DNA from: Fibrobacteria bacterium
Lineage (GTDB): Bacteria; Fibrobacterota; Fibrobacteria; UBA11236
Direction of reading: 5' to 3'
Assembly: GCA_043745805.1 (NCBI GenBank)
Contig: JAYTSD010000045.1
Coordinates: 80,505-144,504 of the forward strand
DNA: 64,000 nt
Shown here: positions 47,577-61,258 of the stretch, piece by piece
How positions within the stretch are numbered: position 1 is the stretch's first letter
How the letters are laid out: each line of letters begins with the position of its first letter
Translations under genes and position numbers: made by a program
Notes under the pieces: generated by a model
Databases searched by the model: none
Told to the model about the DNA's origin: nothing
What the model saw: only the letters and a program-made list of their open reading frames with translations

Positions 47577-48428
47577 ATGAAAACAAGTATTCTTGCTGGT
47601 ATTGTGCTGGCTGCAGGTATTTCTTTGGCATCAGCAACCGTGGTTACAAGTGGCGCAACTGCCGTCGACTTGGCAAATACCATTGTCGGAACAGGTATTT
47701 CCATCTCGGGAGCAGCTTATTCTGGTTCAGCTGCACAAAACGGAACATATACTGGTTCCACGGTTGAATCTCAAGGTCAATCTCTTTTAAGCACTGGAAT
47801 TGTTCTTTCCTCTGGAAGTGCAGCTACTTTAAATGGTACGTCAAATACGGTAACCAATAGCACTTTAGCAGTTAACGGAGCAGGCGATGCAAATTTAAAT
47901 AGCCTTATCCCAGGTTTTAGCACTTTTGATGCCGCTACCTTAGAATTTGATTTCATCGCTGCAGGTACCGGTACGGTTACCGCTTCTTTTTGGTATGTAT
48001 TTGGTTCAGAAGAATATAATGAATATGTAAACACAAGTTTTAATGATGTATTCGGCTTCTTCTTGGACGGATCGAATGTCGCTTTAATTCCGTCCACAAC
48101 GACTCCAGTATCCATTAATAATGTGAACGCAGGTTCGAATGCTACTTATTACAATAACAATAGCCCTGGTCCATTCGCAACTGAAATGGATGGTTTCACA
48201 AAGCCATTATTTGTTACCTTTACTGTTGCCGGTGGCTCAACTCATCATATGAAATTGGCTATTGCTGATGCAGGTGATACAGTTTTGGATTCATGGGTTA
48301 TGATTGGTGGCAATAGCTTTACCAATCAACCTCCAGTTGAAGCTGTACCAGAACCTACAACTCTAGCACTTTTTGCTGTAGGCTTAATCGGCTTTGCAGG
48401 AATCGCTCGTCGTCGCGGCTTAGTTTAG
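47577..48428 (+). CDS. PEP-CTERM sorting-domain secreted protein
   Basis: Signal peptide, a Thr/Ser/Gly-rich body and a C-terminal VPEPTTLALFAVGLIGFAGIARRRGLV, which is the canonical PEP motif plus TM helix plus Arg cluster. Confidence 0.8.
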   Translation: MKTSILAGIVLAAGISLASATVVTSGATAVDLANTIVGTGISISGAAYSGSAAQNGTYTGSTVESQGQSLLSTGIVLSSGSAATLNGTSNTVTNSTLAVNGAGDANLNSLIPGFSTFDAATLEFDFIAAGTGTVTASFWYVFGSEEYNEYVNTSFNDVFGFFLDGSNVALIPSTTTPVSINNVNAGSNATYYNNNSPGPFATEMDGFTKPLFVTFTVAGGSTHHMKLAIADAGDTVLDSWVMIGGNSFTNQPPVEAVPEPTTLALFAVGLIGFAGIARRRGLV

Positions 48429-49527: not shown

Positions 49528-50229
49528 TTAATAGTATTCGCTTAAAATCACTCGCTGGAAAATTTCGAAATATTCTTCTCCGCGCTTTTCCATATCGAGC
49601 GGTTTATTTAAAAATTCATAAAAGCGTCCTTGGCGTAAAGTTTTATGCATAAGATTATCATCACCCGCAGGATTACCCGTGATCAGCACAAATTTTAAAA
49701 AGGGTTTACTTTTGTGGATTAAATCGCAAAGTTCATTGCCGCTCATTTGTGGCATTACTTCATCAGTAATCACTAATACTACTTCGCTATTTTGCAAAAT
49801 AAATTGTGCCGCTTCTTGTGGGTTTTGAAAGGTTTTTAAATTCAGGCGCTTGCCATATTTGCGTTTGAAAAGAAATAGATTATCCTCTTCATCATCTACA
49901 TAAACGACCAAGGGATTATTTAAACCATGATGTATACAAGAAAAAATATGATCGGCCATTTGCCCTAAGGTTTTATAATGCCCCATATCCATGGGTGTAC
50001 CGCGGTACATCTCCTGCATGGCAAACATCATGGCAATATTAATAGTGATGCCCCCAAAGCGATGTTTTAATTCCTGGTCTAAAAGGGCTATGGTTTCTTT
50101 TTGTATATGGCAATCAAGCAATGCGCATTCGCTATTGCGTAGGACTGGCTGTGGAACAAAGGCGGGATTTTCTCCAGCTAATTTGTCGAGTACGCTTAGT
50201 AAAATCTCAAAAATTCGCGGTGAACGCAT
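49528..50229 (-). CDS. single-domain response regulator: N-terminal ACP-like (serine-less) domain fused to a CheY-type receiver (paralog 2)
   Basis: The C-terminal half has all the REC hallmarks: DD pair (VDDEEDN), phospho-Asp (ITDEVMP), Thr (ITGN) and Lys (NKPLD). There is no output domain. The N-terminal roughly 100 aa align to the paralog at 57672..58349. Confidence 0.6.
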   Translation of the reverse strand: MRSPRIFEILLSVLDKLAGENPAFVPQPVLRNSECALLDCHIQKETIALLDQELKHRFGGITINIAMMFAMQEMYRGTPMDMGHYKTLGQMADHIFSCIHHGLNNPLVVYVDDEEDNLFLFKRKYGKRLNLKTFQNPQEAAQFILQNSEVVLVITDEVMPQMSGNELCDLIHKSKPFLKFVLITGNPAGDDNLMHKTLRQGRFYEFLNKPLDMEKRGEEYFEIFQRVILSEYY

Positions 50230-50327: not shown

Positions 50328-51299
50328 TTAAACTTGATTGCGAGGATGAAAAGACTTATGCGTTTCTCGCAAATAATCCTGATCCAAATGGGTATAAATT
50401 TGTGTGGTGCTAATATCGGTATGGCCCAGCATTTCTTGCACGGAACGTAAATCGGCACCGGCTTCAATTAAATGAGTGGCAAAAGTATGCCGAAAAGTAT
50501 GGGGTGAAACGGCAGTTTTAATATCGCTAGCCAGGCAAATTTGTTGTACGATTTTCCAAGCTCCCATACGGCTTAAAGGTTTGCCGCGCCAATTAAGCAG
50601 TAAAGTATTATCGCGAGCATTAAGGCTTTGTCTTTCGCTGGCTAAATATTGTTTTAAGCTTGCCGATACTTTTTGGCCTAAAGGCACAAGTCTTTGCTTA
50701 TTTCCTTTGCCTTGCACCATTACCACATCTTCATCGAAATGTAATTGATCAATTTGCAAAGTAATTGCTTCGGAAATGCGTAATCCTAATCCATACAATA
50801 ATTCAATTAAGCAAAGATTACGTGCCGGTCCAATTTTGTTTTCGCCATTATTTTGCAAGGCTTCCGGAAGTTCTGAAAGATGTGTATAAATACTTTGCAT
50901 TTCCACATGGCTCAAAGAGGAGGGCTTATAACGCTGTTGCCGTGGCGCGCGCAGGCCCATAGTGGGATCTTCAGTCAATAAATTTTCTTCGATTAAATAC
51001 TGGCAATAGCTTTTAATGCTGGAAACATAACGTGCTAGGCTTGCCGCAGCAATGCCTAAATCGGTAAGACCTTGGATGAATCCTCGTAAGGTTAAAGCGG
51101 TTAAATCTTTCACTGTGGGTTTATTATTGTTTTGCGCGAGATGGCGAAATAGTAAGAGTAAGTCGCGAGTATAGGAATCCACCGTTTCGGGGCTAAGCCT
51201 TTTTTCTAATTGCAATAAGGCTTGGTAACCGCTAAGTGACGGTATTTCGGGATCCGCAGGGGAATCTTTTTCCGTTAATCCTAATCCTTGTTTCTCCAC
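50328..51299 (-). CDS. tyrosine site-specific recombinase, XerC/XerD-like
   Basis: LLELLYGLGLRISEA box, R...HxxR...Y catalytic residues (HTFRHTFATHL...TTQIYTHL) and a length of 323 aa. Confidence 0.8.
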   Translation of the reverse strand: MEKQGLGLTEKDSPADPEIPSLSGYQALLQLEKRLSPETVDSYTRDLLLLFRHLAQNNNKPTVKDLTALTLRGFIQGLTDLGIAAASLARYVSSIKSYCQYLIEENLLTEDPTMGLRAPRQQRYKPSSLSHVEMQSIYTHLSELPEALQNNGENKIGPARNLCLIELLYGLGLRISEAITLQIDQLHFDEDVVMVQGKGNKQRLVPLGQKVSASLKQYLASERQSLNARDNTLLLNWRGKPLSRMGAWKIVQQICLASDIKTAVSPHTFRHTFATHLIEAGADLRSVQEMLGHTDISTTQIYTHLDQDYLRETHKSFHPRNQV

Positions 51300-51302
51300 G
51301 CT

Positions 51303-52298
51303 TTAAGGAATCCCTTTATCAATCACCGCTTTGGCCAAACGATGAAAAAGTGTTGGATTTGCGATGGCCTTACTTAAATTTTCGCGGGTTAAGCTCGCGG
51401 CTAAATCTTTATGATTGCTTGAGCACCAATGTAAGGTATAAGTATTTTCTGGCAAGATTTTTCCTGGGCCATAAAAAAAACGGAAAGTTTGGCTGGGGGG
51501 TATGGTGTAAAAATAATCGCTGCCAAGCCTTGTCATTTCAGAGTCCATGTGATCTCCGGCAATGCCCGTAGGGTCAGTAGGCTTGGACCCAAATAAAGCA
51601 AAAGCACGATTCATTAATATAGGACCGAGATTAAAACGAATAGTAGGATCGGTTTCGGGAATAAGTTTTAATACTTGCATAAAAAAAGCACTACCGGCTT
51701 CGCAAGCCAATACCGCATTGTTTAATTTTTTTGCACTCCATAAGCGCATAAGTATTTTATTAATCACATTAATAGCGCGACTGTCTTTTAAAAATTTTGC
51801 ATTCCATAAAGAGAGATAATAACTAAGTCCAAAAGCCGCGCCGAAAGGAATGATTTCGGGAGTGAACTTGCCTGCTACTCTATCATCATCGCATCGAAAT
51901 ACAGCTTCTTCACCAATGAAGGCGCGATGTTTTAATAAAGGTGTATAATCTTTAACCGTAAGGGTATCGAAATCTAAATAAATACCGCCTTCGCGCACTA
52001 AAATCAGATAACGCAAAATATTGCTTTTGCCAGCTAAATAAGTATTAGAAATGGAGGCAATGATTTGTTTCATGCTTTGCCATTCTTCGGGCAAGCCTTG
52101 CAATAAAGCCGCTAAATCAATAGGTCGAAATTCCACGCGGCCTTGCAGATTTTTCCAAAATTCATTGTGAGGTGGATTTTCAAAATGAATAGTCACTTTA
52201 GCATTTGGATTAGTTTGTAAAATAGATTCAATGGCAAGTTGATTAACAAATGGGAAATGTTGACCTATCCAAATGAGATGAAAATGATGAGGAATCAT
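51303..52298 (-). CDS. GT32-like glycosyltransferase (sugar-binding region with DXD motif)
   Basis: The start was chosen at MIPHHFHLIWIG, the canonical N-terminus of OCH1/GT32-type transferases, followed by a YLDFDTL DXD motif. The longer ORF-track start at 52406 adds a hydrophobic leader and overlaps the divergent gene. Confidence 0.5.
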   Translation of the reverse strand: MIPHHFHLIWIGQHFPFVNQLAIESILQTNPNAKVTIHFENPPHNEFWKNLQGRVEFRPIDLAALLQGLPEEWQSMKQIIASISNTYLAGKSNILRYLILVREGGIYLDFDTLTVKDYTPLLKHRAFIGEEAVFRCDDDRVAGKFTPEIIPFGAAFGLSYYLSLWNAKFLKDSRAINVINKILMRLWSAKKLNNAVLACEAGSAFFMQVLKLIPETDPTIRFNLGPILMNRAFALFGSKPTDPTGIAGDHMDSEMTRLGSDYFYTIPPSQTFRFFYGPGKILPENTYTLHWCSSNHKDLAASLTRENLSKAIANPTLFHRLAKAVIDKGIP

Positions 52299-52395
52299 AA
52301 TTTGCTTTTGGGGATAAACGGTGAGAATGGGTTGCGTGGCGAAAGTGTTTTTGTGGTATTGTCGGTGATCAATCGCATATAATAAGACGAATATA

Positions 52396-54498
52396 ATGAA
52401 AACCACGCCGAATGCAAAGTATTGCCGAACCTTGAGTAAACAATATTGTTCCTTAAGTCTGTGGATTTTTTGCTTCAGCTTATTTTTGCATACGGTTGCC
52501 GCGAATTCTTTCGCTCAAGATTCACTGAATAAAGCGGATTATTATCAGCCCACCATTCTAAAAGTTTGGGAGAAAACCATTGCAACCAATAGGGGCGTGC
52601 ATGCTTGGAATAGCGATAATGATGGCCTATTAGTTTTTCAGGAATGGATAGCCTCAATGATTTTAGCACGTCATAGTTCCGAAGTCGCACAAATTAAACT
52701 GGGACGTAAATTGGAAAATTATGTGGTGGGTGGAAATATTAAACCCTTAGGATATGTGGGTACCACCTTGCCAGTTCCAGGTTTTGGCGAGGGAGATTTT
52801 GATATGACTTTATTGAGTTGTATGACCTTGCTCGGCACCTTTGAACGCGACACTTTAATGTTAACGCATAAAACCTATGTGCATTTATTACGTCAGGTAA
52901 TTTGTCTTTGGGGACAAACTCCCAAAGAAAATTTCGATATTTTTTTTCTGAGTTTCCCAGAAACAGAAAATCATTTATTCATGTCGGAAAGTATTCGCTA
53001 TCTTACCAATCAAATATTGTATGAAAATCCTCGGCATTTAATTGCCATTAAACATTTGCGTGACTCCTTAACTCATGCCGGCATTGAGTTAAATAATAAT
53101 AATGGGGTAGTGCGGCGGTTACTATTAAAAAATATGCAATTGGTGCTTTCACGCGGGCTTTTTGAATTTAATGCAAAGGTTTATCAACGCTTTACTTTAC
53201 ATGCTTTGGATAATCTCTATAGCTTTGCTTCGGATTCAACCCTAGTGGCGGCTTCGCAAAGTGTTTTGCATTATTTAGCCACCAAATTTGCTTTCCAAAG
53301 TTTTAATGGTATTCGCTTTGGGCCTTATCGACGTAACTCGGAAAAATTTGCGGATTCCTCCTTAATTGACAGTGATGCGGCATGCAGTTTTTTTGCTATT
53401 CAAAGTGGCAAGTTTAATTGGGATAATAATTATTGGTTTGCGCATCGTTCCCATGCCGCTATGGCACTTTATTCCACGGTATTAAAATATAGAGTACCCG
53501 ATATATTATTGGATTTTATGCAAAATCGTGAAAACCCTTATTGGGCTTTATTTAGCAATGGTATTAATGTGGAGGCTAATGGTGGGCAAGCTTTGGAAAG
53601 TTACTATGGTGCGCCACATTTTTTGATGAGCGCTGGAGGTCAGTACACGGCATATGCGGGACGGAATTTTCCTACGCAGGGTTTTTGGTTAAAAAAAGCG
53701 CCTTGGGTTTATGATGTGGTAAGTCGTTCGAGTTCGGTCATTTTAGATCCGGCTATTAAGCAACCTTATGCTTTAACGGATATTCTGCATTTTAAAGGCG
53801 CACAATGGAAAGCCAATAATTTAGCTCTGCATCAAAATTTTCTGTATGGTTATGCCGAGGCTAGCCATCGTAAGGATTGGCCACAAGCTATTCCGAGTGA
53901 TTGGCAACAAGATGGGGAAATTATGGATGGCGGAGGATTTGAATTTCGCTTTTATGATCAAAGCCGGCAAGGCGTATTTATAGTGCTAACGCGCTTGAAA
54001 AACCTGCCTTCATGGCGGTTTTGGGAGCGAACTTCTACGGTAAGAGGCACTATCGAAGTGGTGGATACGGCGGAAGCTCATTCCCTAGTTCTTTTTAAGG
54101 CAAAAATGCGCCAACAAAACATGCAAACATTAGGTAATCTATTTACTGCAAAACGGTTATATACCACCTACAAGGGTGTTAAATTAACGCTTAATCCAAG
54201 CTATGATAATACCCATACGGGCATTGTAAAAATACAAAGCCCACAAGATAAGGCGATTTGGAAACAAGGGTTATCTCCAGTATTCAAAAAAAGTAATAGC
54301 TTATTGCAGGTGAATTGGATACAAGCCGATGGCTTATTAGGGCAGGAAATTGCCTCTGGAGATGGTCAAGGTAACTTACAGGTGATTAATCCGCATTTGC
54401 AGCAAGAATTAAATATTTGCTTTAAAGAATGGTGGAATCCATGGATAGTTATGCAGGCTTGGCCGGTCCTTGAAAACAATATCAATAATGTGAAATGA
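52396..54498 (+). CDS. large secreted hypothetical protein (700 aa), possibly polysaccharide-lyase/heparinase-II/III-like
   Basis: Signal peptide and a long Trp/Tyr-rich polypeptide. The family guess is speculative. Confidence 0.45.
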   Translation: MKTTPNAKYCRTLSKQYCSLSLWIFCFSLFLHTVAANSFAQDSLNKADYYQPTILKVWEKTIATNRGVHAWNSDNDGLLVFQEWIASMILARHSSEVAQIKLGRKLENYVVGGNIKPLGYVGTTLPVPGFGEGDFDMTLLSCMTLLGTFERDTLMLTHKTYVHLLRQVICLWGQTPKENFDIFFLSFPETENHLFMSESIRYLTNQILYENPRHLIAIKHLRDSLTHAGIELNNNNGVVRRLLLKNMQLVLSRGLFEFNAKVYQRFTLHALDNLYSFASDSTLVAASQSVLHYLATKFAFQSFNGIRFGPYRRNSEKFADSSLIDSDAACSFFAIQSGKFNWDNNYWFAHRSHAAMALYSTVLKYRVPDILLDFMQNRENPYWALFSNGINVEANGGQALESYYGAPHFLMSAGGQYTAYAGRNFPTQGFWLKKAPWVYDVVSRSSSVILDPAIKQPYALTDILHFKGAQWKANNLALHQNFLYGYAEASHRKDWPQAIPSDWQQDGEIMDGGGFEFRFYDQSRQGVFIVLTRLKNLPSWRFWERTSTVRGTIEVVDTAEAHSLVLFKAKMRQQNMQTLGNLFTAKRLYTTYKGVKLTLNPSYDNTHTGIVKIQSPQDKAIWKQGLSPVFKKSNSLLQVNWIQADGLLGQEIASGDGQGNLQVINPHLQQELNICFKEWWNPWIVMQAWPVLENNINNVK

Positions 54499-54801: not shown

Positions 54802-56178
54802 TTAACTCTCTTCGTGAAAATCAATTTTTGCATCCGCATGCACACTGAAACTTCCCTGTCCATTGATTACGATATGTAAACCAATTTTTTGTGTTTCTAA
54901 TTTTGCTTTTAAACGATATAAGCGAATTTCAAAATTTGGTTTCTTTTGTCCGGCTAAAAGATTTTGATCTTTTTTGAAACTGCGATATTCAAATTCCTTT
55001 TTGCCTTTGTGAATCAATTCAATTAAAATATTGCGTAGTATTTTTGCAGAAACCGTTTTTAAAAAAATTTTTCCATTTAAAATGAGTTGTACTTCTTGAG
55101 GTCGATAAATAAAAACAATATTCGCTTCAAGCTGACTAATTAAATTTTGATGCTTGCGCATTAATGCTCCAGCAAAAATCTTTTCATGTTGTGCCGCATC
55201 TTCGACTAAGTGCTTGAGAAATAGGCCATTTTTTAACTGGACTTTTTGATGCTTAACACAAGTCATGTATATAGGAGCGCTGTATACACACTGGGCGTGG
55301 AGCAATATGCGCTGGCGTAAGGGGCAGAAAAAATCCTTTTCCATAAGGATTACTTGCGCTGCGGGAATTTTATATTTCGCTAAGCTTAACTCATGGCTTT
55401 TTAAAAAATCAGTGAAGGCTATTTTGTGACCGTAACATTCACCGTTTATCCATAATTGTTGACCTTTAACGCGTACGGAATGATCGGGTAAAATATTATT
55501 TATAGAACGAATATCAGATAAATATTGCAACTGTGCAAAAGGCGCCAAGCCTAAAATTTTGGGAGCTTTTAAAATTTGGGGGCCGACTACAAAATCAAAA
55601 TTAAAATTAAAGGCATGGGTAAAGGTTTTGTCGGGAATATAAACTAAATAGGATTGTACTGATTTTTTTCCCTCCACCTTTTTTACGCGGCGATGAATAT
55701 GCCCTGGCAAATATTTTTCCGTACACACCGAAATCAAATCAAAAACCATATCATGTGTATCCGTGGCATTGAAGGCCTTTTGCATCAAGGGATAAAACCA
55801 AGCTAAAATTTCTTTACCAGGAAAATAGGTAGCGGCATTATTTCGATAAAGCAGTTTTTCTATGAATTTATTTGGAGAAACCCCCTTGCTGATTAAAAAA
55901 GGTTCCAAATCATTGACCACATAATAATTCCATCGCAATGGAATTTTTCCTTCACAGTGCCAAAGAAAATGCAGCAGCTCGGCGCCAATCAATATTTTAT
56001 CGGGATAAACAATAGGGTGTGCTTCCCAAAACTCTAAAATCCATTCCCGTGGAAATAATTGCAACATAGTCACATACGAGGCGCGGTGAAAATCGTGAAT
56101 GGTTAAGGGATCCTGCATGAGATAGCGGGTTTGTTCAAGGGGCGCTTCGTTATCTATCAGCAGTGCTTCTTTGATCAT
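54802..56178 (-). CDS. regulator with novel roughly 350-aa N-terminal domain fused to a C-terminal OmpR/PhoB-type winged-helix DNA-binding domain (tandem paralog B)
   Basis: The C-terminal roughly 90 aa (...LKTVSAKILRNILIELIHKGKKEFEYRSF...NFEIRLYRLKAKLE...IGLHIVINGQGSFSV) follow the Trans_reg_C pattern (L-P-E, LL, G, the RLRKKLE-like helix and the TVRGxGYxL-like wing). The N-terminal part has conserved Cys/His (CPLRQRILLHAQCVYSAPIYMTCVKHQ). Confidence 0.55.
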   Translation of the reverse strand: MIKEALLIDNEAPLEQTRYLMQDPLTIHDFHRASYVTMLQLFPREWILEFWEAHPIVYPDKILIGAELLHFLWHCEGKIPLRWNYYVVNDLEPFLISKGVSPNKFIEKLLYRNNAATYFPGKEILAWFYPLMQKAFNATDTHDMVFDLISVCTEKYLPGHIHRRVKKVEGKKSVQSYLVYIPDKTFTHAFNFNFDFVVGPQILKAPKILGLAPFAQLQYLSDIRSINNILPDHSVRVKGQQLWINGECYGHKIAFTDFLKSHELSLAKYKIPAAQVILMEKDFFCPLRQRILLHAQCVYSAPIYMTCVKHQKVQLKNGLFLKHLVEDAAQHEKIFAGALMRKHQNLISQLEANIVFIYRPQEVQLILNGKIFLKTVSAKILRNILIELIHKGKKEFEYRSFKKDQNLLAGQKKPNFEIRLYRLKAKLETQKIGLHIVINGQGSFSVHADAKIDFHEES

Positions 56179-56192
56179 AGGAGTTGCTTTCC

Positions 56193-57545
56193 TTAACCTA
56201 TTTCGCGGAAATCGATTTTCCGATCACAGATTAAAGTAAAAGTTCCGCGTCCATTTTTCACTATACTTAGGCCTAATTTTTCTTGGTCGAGTTTTTCCAT
56301 TAGGCGATAAAAACGGATTTCAAAATTGGAATTTTTTTGGTGGTTGGATATTTCAAAATCGGCTTTGAACTCTTTATACTCAAATTCAGTTTTACCCTCG
56401 CGAGTATAGGCGAGAAGAATATCCTTTAAAATTTTGGCGGGGGTATTTTTTACAAAATGTTTTCCATTGAGGGATAAACTTTGATCTTGAGCATGATAGA
56501 ACGCACGTATTTTATTTTCTAATTGCTTTACTAATTCCCCATGTTTTTTTTCCAATTCACTTTTGGAAAAGGATTTTTCTAAATCGGCATCTTCAACCAA
56601 ATGTTGTAAGAAACTGATTTTTTTCTTTTGCAACTTATGATGTTGCATGCAAATCATGTATAGCGGCGCACCATAAGCGCAATTGGCATAGAGGACAATG
56701 CGTTTGCGGAGTGGACAATAATAATCTTTGTGCAAATGAAATACTTCGGCATCGGGCGCATCAATTTTGCCTAAATCAATATCCAATTTTTTCAATAAAG
56801 CATAAAAAGTGGTTTTTTTGCCAATCCAATCCCCTTCGACATAGCAATCCGAGCCTTTATATTCGGCCTTTCCGGTCCATAGTACATCGTCTACGGTGCG
56901 TGTATCGCAAATATATTCAACGTTATTAAAAGCAGGCAAAGAAAGAATCTTGGAACTGGATTTGAATTGTTCTCCGGCCACAAAATCGAAATTAAATTTT
57001 ACCATATTGCTAAAATTTTTATCGCTACAATAAACCAAATAAGAATGTACCACATTTTCTTTTTCAACTTTTTTGACACGGCGACTTATATGTTGCGGTA
57101 ATAATTTCGAGGTAAAAATATCAATCAGTTTATAAGCCATATCCCAAATATCATAGGCATTAAATACTTTGCCCATAAGCGGATAAAACCAAGACAGTAT
57201 AGTTATACCTGGGATATACGTAGCTTGATTGTTACGGAAGAGAATTTTTTTAATGAAGCTATTTCCGTAAATACCTTTGGAAATTAAAAAGGGTTCAATA
57301 GCGTCACCCGTGGTATAATCCCAAGTGACAGGGACTTTATTATTCGCTTGCCATAAATGCTTAACTAATTCATCATCCGCAATGAGGTGTGTGCCCTCTT
57401 GAATAGGATATGCAGACCAAAACTCTTCCAGCCAATCCAATGGAAACTCAGCCAGCATGGTAAGATAAACGGAGCGTTGAAAATCATTAGTGGTTTTTAG
57501 CTTTTTATAAGCATTAGTCCATTTATTAATGAGCTGTTGTCCCAA
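56193..57545 (-). CDS. regulator with novel N-terminal domain fused to a C-terminal OmpR/PhoB-type winged-helix domain (tandem paralog A)
   Basis: This is a full-length paralog of 54802..56178 (shared blocks PFLISKG, SYLVY, FNFDFV, DYYCPLRKRIVLYANCAYGAPLYMICMQHH). The C-terminal ...NFEIRFYRLMEKLD...LGLSIVKNGRGTFTL matches the OmpR-type wHTH. Confidence 0.55.
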   Translation of the reverse strand: MGQQLINKWTNAYKKLKTTNDFQRSVYLTMLAEFPLDWLEEFWSAYPIQEGTHLIADDELVKHLWQANNKVPVTWDYTTGDAIEPFLISKGIYGNSFIKKILFRNNQATYIPGITILSWFYPLMGKVFNAYDIWDMAYKLIDIFTSKLLPQHISRRVKKVEKENVVHSYLVYCSDKNFSNMVKFNFDFVAGEQFKSSSKILSLPAFNNVEYICDTRTVDDVLWTGKAEYKGSDCYVEGDWIGKKTTFYALLKKLDIDLGKIDAPDAEVFHLHKDYYCPLRKRIVLYANCAYGAPLYMICMQHHKLQKKKISFLQHLVEDADLEKSFSKSELEKKHGELVKQLENKIRAFYHAQDQSLSLNGKHFVKNTPAKILKDILLAYTREGKTEFEYKEFKADFEISNHQKNSNFEIRFYRLMEKLDQEKLGLSIVKNGRGTFTLICDRKIDFREIG

Positions 57546-57671: not shown

Positions 57672-58349
57672 TTAAAACTTGGCGAAGTAAATTAAGCCTA
57701 AAACCAAATTCAAATACTCTTCACTTTTGTTTTCTAAGTCCAATGGCTTATTAATGAATTCATAAAAACGGTTGTGACGCAAGCTTTTATACAATAAATT
57801 GCTATCGTCATCGGGATTGCCGGTGATTAAAATGAATTTCAAATAAGGTTTGGTTTTATGCACTTCATCGCAAAGTTCATTACCTCCCATAAGAGGCATA
57901 ACTTCATCGGTTATGACTAAAGCGACATCGGAATTAGTTCTTATAAATTCCAAGGCTTCCAATGGTTTAGTAAAAGTTTTGAGAGTTATTTTTTTGCCTA
58001 ATTTGCGATTGAAAACAAAAAGATTGTCTTCTTCATCGTCGACATAAACTACGAGAGGGTTTTTATTAGTGGTAACAAAAAGTTTTTCCAAGTGCTCCAA
58101 TAGTTTTGCAACGGTAAGATAGGGAAACTCGGTTGGGTTTAAATAATTTTCCAGGTTTAAACGTTTTCCCTCATATCGTTTTTCCAATTCATCTTTAATT
58201 TCAGAAAAGGCAACTTGATCCACACCAATATCTTCTAGAAAAACTTTATTCGTTTCGCATTCCAACAATGCGGGTAGTGTTGCGCCATTGTTTTTAAAAA
58301 CATCATTTAATATTTCATATACTTCTTGTTTTGCCATGAGAACCCTCAA
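57672..58349 (-). CDS. single-domain response regulator: N-terminal ACP-like (serine-less) domain fused to a CheY-type receiver (paralog 1)
   Basis: The N-terminal roughly 95 aa read like an acyl carrier protein (EVYEILNDVF...TNKVFLEDIGVDQVAFSEIKDELEKRYEG...LTVAKLLEHLEK), with the phosphopantetheinyl Ser of the DSL motif replaced by Gln (DQV). The C-terminus is a complete REC domain. Confidence 0.6.
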   Translation of the reverse strand: MRVLMAKQEVYEILNDVFKNNGATLPALLECETNKVFLEDIGVDQVAFSEIKDELEKRYEGKRLNLENYLNPTEFPYLTVAKLLEHLEKLFVTTNKNPLVVYVDDEEDNLFVFNRKLGKKITLKTFTKPLEALEFIRTNSDVALVITDEVMPLMGGNELCDEVHKTKPYLKFILITGNPDDDSNLLYKSLRHNRFYEFINKPLDLENKSEEYLNLVLGLIYFAKF

Positions 58350-58380: not shown

Positions 58381-59556
58381 TTAAATCATTAAACTTTCAA
58401 TTTTTAATTCCTTAATAGCTTCTGCGGTAACGATAGCCGTTTTTATAATAGCTTCACGAGTAATTTCGGCGTGAACTGAAAAACGAGCAAAACTTTTATC
58501 ACGCGCTGAAGCTGGAGGAGCAAATACTGAAAATAAAATTCCTTTTTCTTTCATTTTTCCATAAAGGGCGCTAGCTGTATAGGGGCCTTTAAAAAATACG
58601 GATACGATTTGACAATTACTTGGACCAGTGGGAATACCACGTTGATTCAACTCATCCCTTAAAAGTTGAGCCATATCCATGCAATGCTGCGCTCTTTGCG
58701 GTTCCCGTAAAATAACATTCAAAGCGGCTCTGTGACCCGCAGAGTTTGGTTCAGAAGGTGAAGAACTAAAAATAATAGAGTGACAACGAAATCTTAAAAA
58801 ACGAATGGCTTGTAGGCTTGCTGCGATAAAGCCTCCATTGCCGCCAATAGCTTTGGACAAGCTAACCGTTCGAAAAGGTACTCTATCTTGTAACCCTAAT
58901 GAAACGGCTAAACCACCGCCATTTTCTCCAATCATTCCAAAGCTATGGGCTTCATCTAGTACCAAGGCGCAGTTATACTTTTCACATAAAGCAATGTAGG
59001 TGGGAAGATCAGCAACTGATCCATCAGTGCTATAATAAGCATCGATGCAAACAATTCCCGTTCCATCTTTTTTGATTCTTTTTTCCAAATATTCCGGATC
59101 ATTATGTTTGATTAAAACAGGTCTTCCTGAAGAAAGTTTCGCACCGGACCATAATGACGCATGCGCTTGATGATCAATGTAAATAGGCAAATCAGGTGTA
59201 GCTATTGCTTCTAATAAACCGACATTAGCGCACCAACCAGCAGTAGTTACGATTACGTCTTCGCTTTTGAGGCTTTTTTTTAATACTTCCCCAAATTTTC
59301 CATGTTCACCGGTGTCGGCTCCAAAAACCAATGAGGCTACGCTACCTGTGCCAATATTGTTATTCGCTTCATCCTTGGCTGCTATTACCTCGGGATGGCG
59401 AGACAAGCGCAAATAATCATTTTGATGTAATTCAATATAGGCTTTTGAATCTCCAGGTTGATCGAATGGATTCGGTTGATGGCCATCCATAAAATTCAAC
59501 CAGTCCTCATAATGTTTGGTTAACCATGGCGTTGTATCTAAATCATCGGAAAGCAT
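58381..59556 (-). CDS. CqsA/LqsA-family alpha-hydroxyketone autoinducer synthase (PLP-dependent alpha-oxoamine synthase)
   Basis: Block-by-block similarity to Vibrio CqsA as I recall it: LHQNDYLRLSRHP vs LQSNDYLALANHP; GWCANVGLL...IYIDHQAHASLWSGA vs GWNANVGLL...VYIDFFAHMSLWEGA; IVCIDAYYSTDG...CALVLDEAHSFG...NGGGL vs IIVVDSIYSTLG...CALLVDESHSLG...NGAGL; and the PLP lysine in SLSKA. The 391-aa length matches CqsA at about 389 aa. Confidence 0.8.
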   Translation of the reverse strand: MLSDDLDTTPWLTKHYEDWLNFMDGHQPNPFDQPGDSKAYIELHQNDYLRLSRHPEVIAAKDEANNNIGTGSVASLVFGADTGEHGKFGEVLKKSLKSEDVIVTTAGWCANVGLLEAIATPDLPIYIDHQAHASLWSGAKLSSGRPVLIKHNDPEYLEKRIKKDGTGIVCIDAYYSTDGSVADLPTYIALCEKYNCALVLDEAHSFGMIGENGGGLAVSLGLQDRVPFRTVSLSKAIGGNGGFIAASLQAIRFLRFRCHSIIFSSSPSEPNSAGHRAALNVILREPQRAQHCMDMAQLLRDELNQRGIPTGPSNCQIVSVFFKGPYTASALYGKMKEKGILFSVFAPPASARDKSFARFSVHAEITREAIIKTAIVTAEAIKELKIESLMI

Positions 59557-59698
59557 GGAACGGTCCTTTTATTATCTGTATAAATGGTTTGGATTTTGTG
59601 GTTTTTTGTGTATGTGAATGAATGTCTTGCTCAAATATGCTTCCGGGCCTTAATATTGCATTTGAAGCTAGAATTTTTGGCTTTTGAGGAAAAGGTTG

Positions 59699-61258
59699 AT
59701 GCTGAGAAAATTCTTTTCGAAGGATTTTTGGAATGGCCGTTCGGAATACCACCGAATGCTTTTTAATACTGACTATTCCTTTCAAAAACGTTTTATGATG
59801 GTACTGGTATATATAGGCGCACCAGCCAATATATTTTTTCATTACTATGAACAAGATCAAGGTTATCAAGATTCTACCATTGGACGTTATGCTATTTCTC
59901 TGCTATTAGTTACACTAGTTTTCCTACCGAAGATTATCAAGCAAAATAAATGGCAAATATCGTACTGGGAACTCACACTTTTCATTTTTTTCCCATGTAT
60001 GAACACCGCCTTCATGCTGATGAATCATGTTAATCAGTATTGGTTTTCCACCTTTATTCTGGATATGGTATTTTTGGGCATTTTTACCAAATGGTATATG
60101 ATCCCTTTCCATTACATTTTTGGTAGTGCGGCAATAACATGGTGGTACTTTCACAATACAGGATATGATGCGAAATTATTTCAGGCCAATTTAAATGCGC
60201 ATGTGGCAGCCTTTCTAGGAACATGCGTTGCATCGGGAGTCGTTTTAACTATTGAATATGTTAATAAAAAATCTACTGAAGCTAAATTAGCGCTATCTAA
60301 AGCGGAACATGATAGGCTCAGAACCTTAGAGCTACAAAAATCAAATGAAGAATTAAAAAAACGTGAGGAAATCATTAAGGTGTATGTGCGCCCATCCTTG
60401 TATGAAGAGTTAGCGGCGGGACATGACCCTCTCAAATTTCAACCTATTATGCTGCCTAAGGCGATTATGTTTTGCGACATTCGCGACTTCACTTATTTGA
60501 CGGAAATTCTTACCCCTTACGAAAAACAAACTTTTCTCAATCAATATTTCACTTTGATGAATCATGCCATTGTCAATAATGAAGGCGAAGTAGATAAAAT
60601 TGTGGGCGATTGTATTATGGGTCTTTTTCCTAATGGCCGCGCAGCCGTACATGCCGCATTGGCCATGCGTAAGGCCTTGCACACATTTAATAATATGATG
60701 TACAACAGTGGTCGTCGAAAAATCCCTAATGGTATTGGCATAGCCAAGGGCGAAGTGATGTTAGGCAATTTCGGATCTAATGAAAAACTAGATCGCACGG
60801 TGATTGGTGAAGCGGTGAATATAGCTTCACGCTTGGAATCTAAAACCAAAATGTATGGTGTGGAAATTGTGGTGACTCAGGATGTGGTCGATGAAATGCA
60901 GGGCTATCCCTATATGCGTTGGATTGACAATGCTAAGGTAAAAGGTTCGAGCCGACCTTTGCAGCTTTATGAAATTTATGGACATCAACCAGATGAAGTG
61001 ATTGCCTATAAAGAAAAGACTAAAGTCATATTCGAAAAGGCTTTGACTATTTATTTCAATAAAGGTTTTAAAGATGCTTTACGCATGTTTCAATCTATGT
61101 TATCCGAGGTTCCACCGCATAAATACAAAGCGAATGCACCCATGGATAATATTCTCAGCTATTATATTGAGCATTGCCGAACTTGGGTGAATGACTCCGC
61201 AGGGGCTTGGGACTTGCGGAATAAATGGGATGGCATTCATGAGTTTAAAGAAAAGTGA
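59699..61258 (+). CDS. membrane-anchored class III nucleotidyl (adenylate-type) cyclase: 6-TM N-terminal domain, coiled-coil linker and catalytic domain
   Basis: Six hydrophobic helices lie in the first roughly 190 aa, then KLALSKAEHDRLRTLELQKSNEELKKRE, then the CHD motifs FCDIRDFT, KIVGDCIMG and GEAVNIASRLES. The start was placed at the first ATG, which has an AGGAAAAGG RBS; the ORF-track TTG start at 59684 is in the same frame. The substrate-position residues look Lys/Thr, which is adenylate-cyclase-like. Confidence 0.8.
   Translation: MLRKFFSKDFWNGRSEYHRMLFNTDYSFQKRFMMVLVYIGAPANIFFHYYEQDQGYQDSTIGRYAISLLLVTLVFLPKIIKQNKWQISYWELTLFIFFPCMNTAFMLMNHVNQYWFSTFILDMVFLGIFTKWYMIPFHYIFGSAAITWWYFHNTGYDAKLFQANLNAHVAAFLGTCVASGVVLTIEYVNKKSTEAKLALSKAEHDRLRTLELQKSNEELKKREEIIKVYVRPSLYEELAAGHDPLKFQPIMLPKAIMFCDIRDFTYLTEILTPYEKQTFLNQYFTLMNHAIVNNEGEVDKIVGDCIMGLFPNGRAAVHAALAMRKALHTFNNMMYNSGRRKIPNGIGIAKGEVMLGNFGSNEKLDRTVIGEAVNIASRLESKTKMYGVEIVVTQDVVDEMQGYPYMRWIDNAKVKGSSRPLQLYEIYGHQPDEVIAYKEKTKVIFEKALTIYFNKGFKDALRMFQSMLSEVPPHKYKANAPMDNILSYYIEHCRTWVNDSAGAWDLRNKWDGIHEFKEK

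What the first reader, a model, noticed from the sequence alone, without database searches (positions are those of the whole stretch)
57672..58349. Response-regulator receiver fused to a serine-less acyl-carrier-protein-like domain (pseudo-ACP-REC), duplicated 7.4 kb away
The N-terminal roughly 95 residues of this protein, and more divergently of its paralog at 49528..50229, read like an ACP four-helix bundle. The DSL phosphopantetheinylation site is replaced by DQV (CHI in the paralog), so the domain cannot carry an acyl group. It is followed by a complete CheY-type receiver and no output domain. It sits between an acyl-transferring PLP enzyme (the CqsA-like synthase) and wHTH proteins that lack a receiver. 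This looks like a split response regulator whose REC half has acquired an acyl- or ligand-recognition module.
Basis: partly seen in the sequence, partly recalled or inferred. Interest (0 to 1): 0.75.

Follow-up and report, generated by a model that had tools for sequence, protein, structure and literature searches.

The report
Serine-less carrier-protein domain fused to receiver
This gene encodes a two-component receiver protein whose N-terminal half is a degenerate acyl-carrier-protein domain that cannot carry an acyl group, and which is almost always encoded directly behind an acyl-condensing PLP enzyme, suggesting a phosphorylation-controlled "decoy carrier protein" that has not been described before.

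The parts
57672..58337 (-).
   Evidence: ORF. ATG at 58337 with GAGGG 6-7 nt upstream. The 221-aa database copy and all homolog N-termini start here.
58068..58337 (-). N-terminal degenerate carrier-protein (ACP/PCP-fold) domain, residues 1-90
58215..58220 (-). Codons D40-Q41. Q41 occupies the position of the phosphopantetheine-bearing Ser of GxDS.
   Evidence: HMM alignments to 8all and NodF place family position 41 opposite the Ser. There is no Ser or Thr at this position in 165 relatives. Sequence read.
57693..58052 (-). CheY-type receiver domain, residues 96-215
   Evidence: PF00072 39.9 bits. AF2 (beta-alpha)5 fold, pLDDT mostly above 90. Foldseek hits to receiver domains, E 1e-7.
57906..57908 (-). 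Codon of the predicted phospho-acceptor Asp144
   Evidence: Invariant in 165 of 165 relatives, together with D100, D101, T172 and K197. Sequence read.
58381..59556 (-). CqsA-like alpha-oxoamine synthase, 43 nt upstream of the ATG at 58337 on the same strand
   Evidence: PF00155. NF005526 289.8 bits is the best hit but is below the cut-off of 428. Best PDB match is CqsA, 2e-50. An AOS lies directly upstream in 23 of 50 family genes.
49528..50229 (-). Type-B paralog (233 aa): a more degenerate carrier-like N-domain plus a receiver
   Evidence: 44% identity. PF00072. N-domain HMM E 2e-26. In 10 other loci its orthologs lie 0-53 nt from the cyclase gene, convergent.
59684..61258 (+). Membrane class III adenylate/guanylate cyclase, divergent from the synthase; a conserved member of the cassette
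   Evidence: PF00211. Hydrophobic N-terminal segments. Orthologs (E 1e-150 to 1e-184) next to the cassette in at least 13 loci.
56193..57545 (-).
   Evidence: No Pfam or NCBIfam hit. Family of 47 proteins. No minus-strand terminator-like site between the genes.
54802..56178 (-). 458-aa orphan-family protein (paralog 2), 47% identical to the first

Best explanation
The protein is a response regulator whose effector module is a decoy carrier protein. Shown: the N-terminal domain descends from a PKS/NRPS-type ACP. It keeps the fold, the G-x-D helix-II cap, an acidic surface and the P(T) motif before helix IV. It has lost the phosphopantetheine serine, so it cannot carry an acyl group. The C-terminal receiver is fully competent for Asp phosphorylation.

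Inferred: a histidine kinase phosphorylates Asp144. In many relatives a ~720-aa GAF kinase is encoded convergently right behind the gene. Phosphorylation changes how the carrier-like domain is presented. That domain then docks, as an ACP would, on the alpha-oxoamine synthase translated from the gene directly upstream. Docking would switch synthesis of an alpha-aminoketone or alpha-hydroxyketone-type lipid signal up or down.

The logic is the same as in PhyR: a degenerate mimic domain N-terminal to a receiver, released by phosphorylation to bind the partner of the protein it mimics. The 233-aa paralog would be the same device, paired with the membrane cyclase.
For: Architecture:
- Carrier fold and homology.
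- No Ser or Thr at the attachment position in 165 relatives, and a mean N-domain net charge of -5.8.
- Receiver catalytic residues 100% invariant.

Partner:
- An AOS lies directly upstream on the same strand in 23 of 50 non-redundant family genes. Gaps are -4 to +54 nt after setting aside four apparent overlaps of -70 to -85 nt, which I attribute to ORF starts called too far upstream. Three gaps are 4-nt overlaps.
- The AOS partners belong to three different subfamilies: CqsA-like, SPT/BioF-like and PRK07505-like. What is conserved is therefore the pairing with the enzyme class, not one operon.
- N-domain pairwise distances track AOS distances (r 0.82; partial r controlling for the receiver 0.80; 0 of 5000 permutations reach this). 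Receiver distances do not (r 0.37, partial -0.28). The pattern also holds within AOS classes.

Precedent:
- AOS enzymes that take their acyl group from a dedicated ACP encoded next door are established for bacterial serine palmitoyltransferases (PMC9386255).
- The order synthase, then regulator, then a convergent kinase mirrors lqsA-lqsR/lqsS (PMC3376566).
- The kinase is conserved beside the gene in L001, L009, L011, L012 and L023, and nearby in L007, L013, L014 and L022.
Against: - There is no direct evidence of binding between the N-domain and the synthase. No complex prediction could be run.
- The distance correlation is confounded by shared operon history and by the receiver's small dynamic range (mean distance 0.31, against 0.68 for the N-domain).
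- About 14 of 50 family genes have no AOS or cyclase next to them. Their neighbours include methyltransferases, a porin, GH43 and a desaturase, so AOS docking cannot be the role of every member.
- CqsA itself uses acyl-CoA, not acyl-ACP (PMC3376566).
- The window contains no histidine kinase.
- The type-B paralog's link to the cyclase is only modestly supported by covariation (partial r 0.49, n = 11).
Confidence: 0.4

Rival explanations
1. Cytoplasmic ligand sensor. The carrier-like bundle binds the acyl chain of the synthase's product or substrate non-covalently, and this modulates receiver phosphorylation or partner choice. This is the 'acyl or ligand recognition module' half of the first reader's idea.
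For: - ACP folds can enclose acyl chains (established for type II FAS ACPs; my own knowledge).
- The gene is tightly linked to an acyl-condensing enzyme, and in L003 and L027 to a fatty-acid desaturase.
- Covariation between the N-domain and the synthase type would also be expected if the ligand differs between synthase classes.
Against: - The nearest sequence relatives are PKS/NRPS-type carrier domains. Those generally do not sequester their cargo (my own knowledge).
- The serine is mostly replaced by Leu, Ile or Val, with no conserved polar ligand-binding residues. The one invariant N-domain residue is R54 on the surface helix.
- No pocket analysis was possible.
Confidence: 0.15
2. Split response regulator. 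The receiver protein pairs with the receiver-less 450-aa proteins, which act as DNA-binding outputs. The pseudo-ACP domain is the interface.
For: - In the window the two 450-aa genes follow on the same strand with no terminator-like site between them.
- 450-aa genes lie within 10 kb in L003 (five in tandem), L010, L013 and L024.
- They have no receiver of their own by profile comparison.
- Their C-terminal ~100 residues look by eye like an OmpR-type winged helix (sequence).
Against: - The wHTH could not be verified: there is no Trans_reg_C or solved-structure hit, and hhalign gives 4%.
- The 450-aa family lies within 10 kb of family genes in only 5 of the 33 non-redundant loci. In other loci a kinase occupies the downstream position.
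- Members also occur alone, far from any family gene.
- The N-domain covaries with the synthase.
Confidence: 0.1
3. Generic docking or dimerisation module. The helical N-domain is a relic ACP now used to bind the cognate GAF kinase or the cyclase, or to dimerise. The protein acts as a single-domain regulator or phosphate sink, and the synthase linkage reflects only co-regulation.
For: - The kinase and the cyclase are also conserved neighbours.
- Type-B paralogs abut the cyclase rather than the synthase.
- Orphan paralogs exist in unrelated contexts.
- The closest solved receivers come from an adenylate cyclase homolog and from HD-domain fusions.
Against: - Kinase orthologs are very similar across loci (E 1e-118 to 1e-190) while the N-domain is the fast-diverging half and tracks the synthase class.
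- 4-nt overlaps with the synthase gene suggest stoichiometric co-production.
Confidence: 0.2
4. It is a working carrier protein modified at a non-canonical residue.
For: Two distant orphan paralogs (L029, L036) carry a D-S-L tripeptide two residues downstream of the canonical position. Nine relatives have Ser at position 40.
Against: - No Ser or Thr is conserved anywhere in the 38-45 segment across the family.
- The window protein has D-Q-V at the site. Its only nearby Ser (S45) is replaced by Pro in 61 relatives.
Confidence: 0.03

Closest known systems
PhyR (alphaproteobacterial general stress response regulator)
   Same: The domain order and the proposed logic match. A degenerate, non-functional copy of another protein class sits N-terminal to a phosphorylatable receiver. 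It is proposed to act by mimicry and partner binding rather than by catalysis or DNA binding. This comparison rests on my own knowledge of PhyR, not on a test here.
   Different: PhyR's mimic domain is sigma-factor-like and binds the anti-sigma factor NepR. Here the mimic is a carrier protein and the presumed target is a PLP-dependent synthase. There is no sequence relationship beyond the receiver. The mechanism here is not shown.
Lqs/Cqs alpha-hydroxyketone quorum-sensing clusters (lqsA-lqsR-hdeD-lqsS; cqsA-cqsS)
   Same: A CqsA-like synthase is followed directly by a receiver protein, and in many relatives by a convergently transcribed histidine kinase (PMC3376566). LqsR is among the better structural matches of the receiver (Foldseek rank 6).
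   Different: LqsR carries its own C-terminal output domain and has no carrier-like domain. The kinase here has a GAF domain rather than a six-helix CqsS/LqsS sensor. The cassette adds a membrane cyclase and a second receiver paralog. Two of the three partner synthase subfamilies are not CqsA-like.
Dedicated ACPs of alpha-oxoamine synthases (AcpR of bacterial serine palmitoyltransferase)
   Same: A carrier-protein-fold gene is encoded next to an alpha-oxoamine synthase, implying a specific ACP-synthase interface (PMC9386255).
   Different: AcpR is a stand-alone holo-ACP that carries 4'-phosphopantetheine and delivers the acyl group. Here the serine is absent throughout the family and the domain is fused to a receiver. 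No acyl-ACP synthetase gene was noticed among the annotated neighbours.
CheV (CheW-receiver fusion)
   Same: It is another regulator with a non-catalytic protein-interaction domain N-terminal to the receiver (my own knowledge).
   Different: The partner domain (CheW) and the pathway (chemotaxis) are different.

Membership tests
CheY-like receiver (Pfam PF00072) | HMM score above the curated threshold | tested here: met
   39.9 bits against a cut-off of 30.2. The paralog scores 41.7 bits.
CheY-like receiver (Pfam PF00072) | Acidic pair, phospho-acceptor Asp, conserved Thr/Ser and Lys | tested here: met
   D100, D101, D144, T172 and K197 are present and invariant in 165 of 165 relatives.
CheY-like receiver (Pfam PF00072) | (beta-alpha)5 fold | tested here: met
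   The AF2 model shows five strand-helix units with pLDDT mostly above 90. Foldseek hits solved receivers at E 1e-7.
CheY-like receiver (Pfam PF00072) | Phosphorylation on Asp by a kinase or acetyl phosphate | not testable with these tools
   This needs biochemistry. A candidate GAF kinase is adjacent in relatives.
Carrier protein (ACP/PCP, Pfam PF00550 PP-binding) | Four-helix carrier fold | tested here: met
Carrier protein (ACP/PCP, Pfam PF00550 PP-binding) | Sequence homology to PP-binding domains | tested here: inconclusive
   The window protein alone scores 12.6 bits, below the 20.8 cut-off. At family level homology is significant: 11 of 24 members hit, best E 4e-5; PDB carrier proteins at E 0.006-0.011; large multi-ACP proteins at E down to 1e-8 in 1.84 billion sequences.
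Carrier protein (ACP/PCP, Pfam PF00550 PP-binding) | Conserved Ser of the GxDS motif for 4'-phosphopantetheine attachment | tested here: not met
   The position is Q41 in the window protein and K in the paralog. There is no Ser and no Thr at this position in 165 relatives. It is therefore not a functional carrier protein.
LqsR-type response regulator | Receiver followed by the LqsR-specific C-terminal output domain | tested here: not met
   The protein ends about 10 residues after the receiver. The match to LqsR 6sy9 is modest (145 columns, TM-score 0.46 by query length and 0.34 by target length), and the query has no C-terminal domain to match.
CqsA/LqsA autoinducer synthase (NCBIfam NF005526) - the upstream gene | Score above the curated equivalog cut-off | tested here: not met
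   289.8 bits against a cut-off of 428. It is nevertheless the best-scoring family and the best PDB match is CqsA at 2e-50. The gene is CqsA-like, not a confirmed equivalog.
OmpR/PhoB winged helix (Pfam Trans_reg_C) - the 450-aa neighbours | Detectable homology of the C-terminal ~100 residues to the wHTH domain | tested here: not met
   No Trans_reg_C hit at E up to 10 in 20 members. No solved wHTH hit. hhalign against an OmpR-family profile built from sequences I recalled gives 4% probability.
PhyR-like mimic-domain regulators | Sigma-factor-like N-terminal domain that binds an anti-sigma factor | tested here: not met
   The N-domain has a carrier-protein fold, not a sigma-like fold. The resemblance is one of logic only.

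The most novel reading that the evidence does not exclude
A two-component receiver controls a lipid-signal synthase post-translationally by presenting a decoy acyl carrier protein. Phosphorylation would expose or hide a serine-less ACP that occupies the carrier or thioester docking site of the co-translated alpha-oxoamine synthase. This would be the first case of carrier-protein mimicry as a response-regulator output. It would sit within a previously unrecognised Fibrobacterota signalling cassette: membrane cyclase, GAF kinase, two pseudo-ACP receivers and a CqsA-like synthase.
Probability: 0.35. Interest if true: 0.8.

Novelty: new variant of a known kind. Interest (0 to 1): 0.66.

Why it matters
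Response regulators are usually classified by their output domains, and I know of no carrier-protein-derived output among them. Four full-text searches on the subject returned nothing relevant. If the decoy-ACP mechanism is right, it adds a new way for two-component signalling to act directly on an enzyme of signal or lipid synthesis. It would also be a second example, after PhyR, of regulation by a degenerate mimic domain.

The finding also marks out a conserved, uncharacterised signalling cassette in uncultured Fibrobacterota that contains a CqsA-like synthase. That extends alpha-hydroxyketone-type chemistry well beyond the Proteobacteria in which it has been studied. The hypothesis is directly testable with two purified proteins.

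Tried and rejected
- **Cryptic holo-ACP.** Rejected: there is no conserved Ser or Thr, and the shifted DSL occurs in only two orphan paralogs.
- **Cryptic receiver in the 450-aa proteins.** hhalign against the family profile gives 0.3%.
- **wHTH in the 450-aa proteins.**
  - The PDB profile search found nothing for the whole protein and nothing relevant for the C-terminal domain.
  - The Pfam scan of 20 C-terminal domains found nothing relevant.
  - hhalign against an OmpR-family profile gave 4%.
  - A profile search of 5.8 billion proteins returned only the same closed family.
  - A phmmer search for OmpR-type domains in the fetched loci, meant to build a native wHTH profile, found none.
- **AlphaFold database search** for two-domain matches: the library was unavailable.
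- **Source contig of the window protein:** not on record. The cluster look-up gave no name.
- **Literature:** searches for ACP-like receiver proteins, pseudo-ACP, and CqsA in Fibrobacteres returned nothing. A fourth search, on PP-binding with response regulators, returned 69 papers, none of the ten listed containing 'PP-binding'.
- **Type-B paralog and cyclase covariation:** weak (partial r 0.49, n = 11), so I do not rely on it.
- both structure-prediction jobs went to the target protein, so the 450-aa protein, the synthase complex and the cyclase were not modelled.

Full report
**1. The observation**

Calling ORFs gives a 225-aa frame at 57672..58349 on the minus strand, starting at a TTG. 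Reading the DNA shows an ATG at 58337 preceded by GAGGG. The identical database protein is 221 aa, and every homolog starts at the corresponding Met. The CDS is therefore 57672..58337.

- Pfam places a receiver domain at residues 100-206 of the 225-aa ORF, numbered from the TTG (39.9 bits, cut-off 30.2). It finds nothing else above threshold.
- The paralog at 49528..50229 (-) is 233 aa and 44% identical over its whole length.
- The gene upstream (58381..59556, -) is a PLP-dependent alpha-oxoamine synthase (AOS). Its best NCBIfam match is the alpha-hydroxyketone autoinducer synthase (289.8 bits, below the 428 cut-off). Its best solved relative is V. cholerae CqsA (2e-50).
- The two genes downstream (56193..57545 and 54802..56178, -) are 47% identical to each other and have no family assignment.
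- No minus-strand terminator-like site separates the four genes.

**2. Is the N-terminal part really ACP-like?**

On its own, the window protein gives only a sub-threshold PP-binding hit (12.6 bits, E 0.16). The protein does, however, belong to a family of at least 272 proteins of 219-236 aa that align over their full length.

A profile of 24 N-domains gave these results:
- It hits solved carrier proteins: a hybrid NRPS-PKS carrier (8all, E 0.006), NodF (E 0.011), a free-standing PCP, CalE8, RhiE, PigH and other ACPs. Nine of the fifteen hits at E up to 10 are carrier proteins. The alignments put the family's G-x-D-[L/I/V/Q] opposite G-x-D-S.
- Eleven of the 24 members hit Pfam PP-binding individually, best E 4e-5.
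- An exhaustive HMMER search of 1.84 billion representatives found 46 proteins at E up to 1e-3. These were family members or fragments, about 28 large multidomain proteins of 813-7,040 aa, and one 86-aa ACP with GVDSL.
- I scanned four of the large proteins. All carry three to five PP-binding domains, three are PKS-type with ketosynthase domains, and where I compared coordinates the hit lies inside a PP-binding domain.

**3. Loss of the serine**

I aligned 165 unique family members to the family HMM. The position opposite the phosphopantetheine serine is:

| Residue | L | I | V | P | E | D | M | others |
|---|---|---|---|---|---|---|---|---|
| Count | 78 | 32 | 13 | 9 | 9 | 8 | 7 | 9 |

There is no Ser and no Thr. 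In the window protein the position is Q41 (D40-Q41-V42).

- Structural hallmarks are retained: G38 in 147 of 165, D40 in 139 of 165, a Pro before helix IV, and an acidic surface (mean net charge -5.8).
- R54 is invariant.
- The receiver's D100, D101, D144, T172 and K197 are invariant in all 165.
- Foldseek of the full model finds only receivers, led by the receiver of an adenylate cyclase homolog (3kcn) and HD-domain fusions, with LqsR at rank 6. No solved protein has both domains.

**4. Distribution and context**

A scan of one genome per species found full-length relatives almost only in Fibrobacterota, Fibrobacteria and Chitinivibrionales MAGs. There are up to four or more copies per genome. 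I called ORFs in 33 non-redundant loci and searched them with profiles of the window's genes. Of the 50 family genes found:

- **23 have an AOS directly upstream on the same strand.**
  - Gaps run from -4 to +54 nt. Four apparent overlaps of -70 to -85 nt I attribute to ORF starts called too far upstream.
  - Three gaps are 4-nt overlaps (L005, L019, L020).
  - The partner synthases fall into three subfamilies: CqsA-like, SPT/BioF-like and PRK07505-like.
- **About 12 are of the 233-aa "type B".** They lie 0-53 nt from a ~505-528-aa membrane class III cyclase, convergent with it. That cyclase is itself divergent from the synthase.
- **About 14 lie in other contexts.** Their neighbours include methyltransferases, a porin, GH43 and a desaturase.

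The canonical cassette is: type B >, < cyclase, synthase >, type A >, followed by one of three things. These are a convergent ~720-aa kinase, a fatty-acid desaturase, or one to five tandem 450-aa genes.
- The kinase has an N-terminal domain, transmembrane segment(s), then GAF, HisKA and HATPase_c domains.
- The desaturase appears.
- The 450-aa genes appear.

In the window the type-B copy sits 7.4 kb away on the other side. A XerD-like recombinase gene, a glycosyltransferase and a 700-aa ORF lie in between. No histidine kinase is present in the 64 kb.

**5. Which half goes with the synthase?**

I took 21 synthase/regulator gene pairs and compared pairwise sequence distances.

| Comparison with synthase distances | r | partial r | permutations reaching it |
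|---|---|---|---|
| N-domain (controlling for receiver) | 0.82 | 0.80 | 0 of 5000 |
| Receiver (controlling for N-domain) | 0.37 | -0.28 | not relevant |

The same pattern holds inside the CqsA-like class (0.95 against 0.83) and among the remaining pairs (0.80 against 0.26). A simple motif shows it too: F-S-[ED] after the cap goes mostly with CqsA-like synthases, mostly L-P-[ED] with the SPT/BioF-like ones, and G-Q-E with the third class.

There are caveats. All three components are inherited together. The receiver is much more conserved (mean distance 0.31 against 0.68 for the N-domain). The test is not tree-aware. It is consistent with the N-domain being the synthase-specific module and the receiver the common input. 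It does not prove this.

**6. The 450-aa neighbours**

- They form a closed family of 47 proteins, all unnamed or from Fibrobacteria, with no Pfam domain.
- A profile of the whole protein hits nothing in the PDB at E up to 10.
- The C-terminal 106 residues look by eye like an OmpR-type winged helix. They give no Trans_reg_C hit and no solved wHTH hit. hhalign against an OmpR-family profile, which I built from recalled E. coli sequences, gives 4% over 24 columns.
- Profile-profile comparison with the regulator family gives 0.3%, so no hidden receiver is detectable by sequence.
- Family members also occur alone on long contigs with no synthase or regulator nearby.

The split-regulator reading is therefore not refuted, but it rests only on adjacency in a minority of loci.

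**7. Mechanism**

- **Shown:** a carrier-protein-derived domain that cannot be phosphopantetheinylated, fused N-terminally to a catalytically complete receiver; strict and repeated linkage to alpha-oxoamine synthases; and N-domain divergence that follows the synthase.
- **Established background:**
  - Enzymes of this class take acyl groups from CoA or from dedicated ACPs encoded next door. An example is AcpR with bacterial serine palmitoyltransferase (PMC9386255).
  - The order lqsA-lqsR with a convergent lqsS is conserved in alpha-hydroxyketone signalling clusters (PMC3376566).
- **Inferred:** the receiver is phosphorylated, probably by the GAF kinase where one is present. This changes the accessibility of the decoy carrier domain, which docks on the synthase and modulates its activity. 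The logic parallels PhyR, where a degenerate sigma-like domain N-terminal to a receiver acts by mimicry (my own knowledge).

I put this at about 0.4. The rivals and their weights are:
- non-covalent acyl-ligand sensor, 0.15
- docking or dimerisation module for the kinase or cyclase, 0.2
- split regulator with the 450-aa proteins, 0.1
- true carrier protein, 0.03

The cassette invites a further speculation: the cyclase makes a cyclic nucleotide, which is sensed by the GAF kinase, which phosphorylates the receivers. Nothing here tests that.

**8. Comparison and novelty**

- The protein is a bona fide member of the receiver superfamily.
- It is homologous to carrier proteins but fails their defining functional feature.
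- It is not an LqsR, because it has no LqsR output domain.
- Precomputed annotations list only PF00072 for every family member. Three full-text searches on the architecture returned no paper at all; a fourth returned 69, and none of the ten listed holds the term 'PP-binding'.

I rate it a new variant of a known kind: a response regulator with a previously undescribed, non-catalytic, carrier-protein-derived effector domain, set in a conserved but uncharacterised Fibrobacterota cassette around a CqsA-like synthase. Interest is 0.66. The architecture is solidly established and surprising, and the mechanism is testable with two proteins, but it remains inferred.

Noticed in passing
window 59684..61258 (+): A membrane class III adenylate/guanylate cyclase (PF00211, hydrophobic N-terminal half) lies divergent from the synthase. 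Orthologs sit in the same cassette in at least 13 other Fibrobacterota loci, usually with the 233-aa type-B paralog convergent 0-53 nt from the cyclase's 3' end. Its N-terminal membrane domain has no family assignment and could be the sensor of the system.
   Followed up: partly
L001:8698-10869 (-); also L009, L011, L012, L023, L007, L013, L014, L022: A conserved ~720-aa histidine kinase is encoded convergently right behind the pseudo-ACP-receiver gene in many relatives. It has an unassigned N-terminal domain, one or two hydrophobic segments, then GAF, HisKA and HATPase_c domains. The 64-kb window has no histidine kinase. With a cyclase in the same cassette, a route from cyclic nucleotide to GAF kinase is an obvious but untested idea.
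   Followed up: partly
window 54802..57545 (-); L003:10869-16672: The 450-aa proteins form a closed orphan family of 47 proteins, Fibrobacteria only, with no Pfam or PDB relative. They carry strongly conserved motifs (for example C-P-x-R-K-R and N-F-E-[VI]-R-F-Y-R-L). They occur as tandem arrays of up to five copies and also as solitary genes (L080, L081).
   Followed up: partly
window 50328..54498: A XerD-like tyrosine recombinase ORF (50328..51299, -; identified by reading the sequence, not run through a family library), a DXD glycosyltransferase (51303..52406, -) and a 700-aa ORF with an N-terminal hydrophobic segment and no family (52396..54498, +) lie between the type-B paralog and the rest of the cassette. 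In other genomes type B abuts the cyclase, so this stretch may mark a rearrangement or an insertion.
   Followed up: no
L003:8669-9793; L027:8244-9350: A fatty-acid desaturase gene directly follows the synthase/pseudo-ACP-receiver pair in two loci. In L027 it is followed by yet another family paralog. This hints that the synthase product has a modified acyl chain.
   Followed up: no
L005:8813-10002: A truncated synthase fragment (about 135-170 aa) overlaps by 4 nt the start of a second pseudo-ACP-receiver gene, just downstream of an intact pair. This is evidence that the gene pair duplicates as a unit.
   Followed up: no
L029:9578-10255; L036:10001-10693: Two distant orphan paralogs carry G-L-[DN]-x-D-S-L-P, that is, a DSL tripeptide shifted two residues from the canonical carrier-protein position. 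It is not conserved in their clade, so it is probably chance.
   Followed up: partly
window 47577..48428 (+): A 283-aa protein with a signal-peptide-like N-terminus ends in VPEPTTLALFAVGLIGFAGIARRR, a PEP-CTERM sorting-signal pattern. I recognised this by eye only.
   Followed up: no
window 59543..59869 (-) and 59584..59766 (+): Short ORFs of 108 and 60 aa lie in the 127-nt-plus divergent region between the synthase and the cyclase and overlap the cyclase's annotated TTG start. They are probably spurious, and the cyclase's true start may lie further downstream.
   Followed up: no
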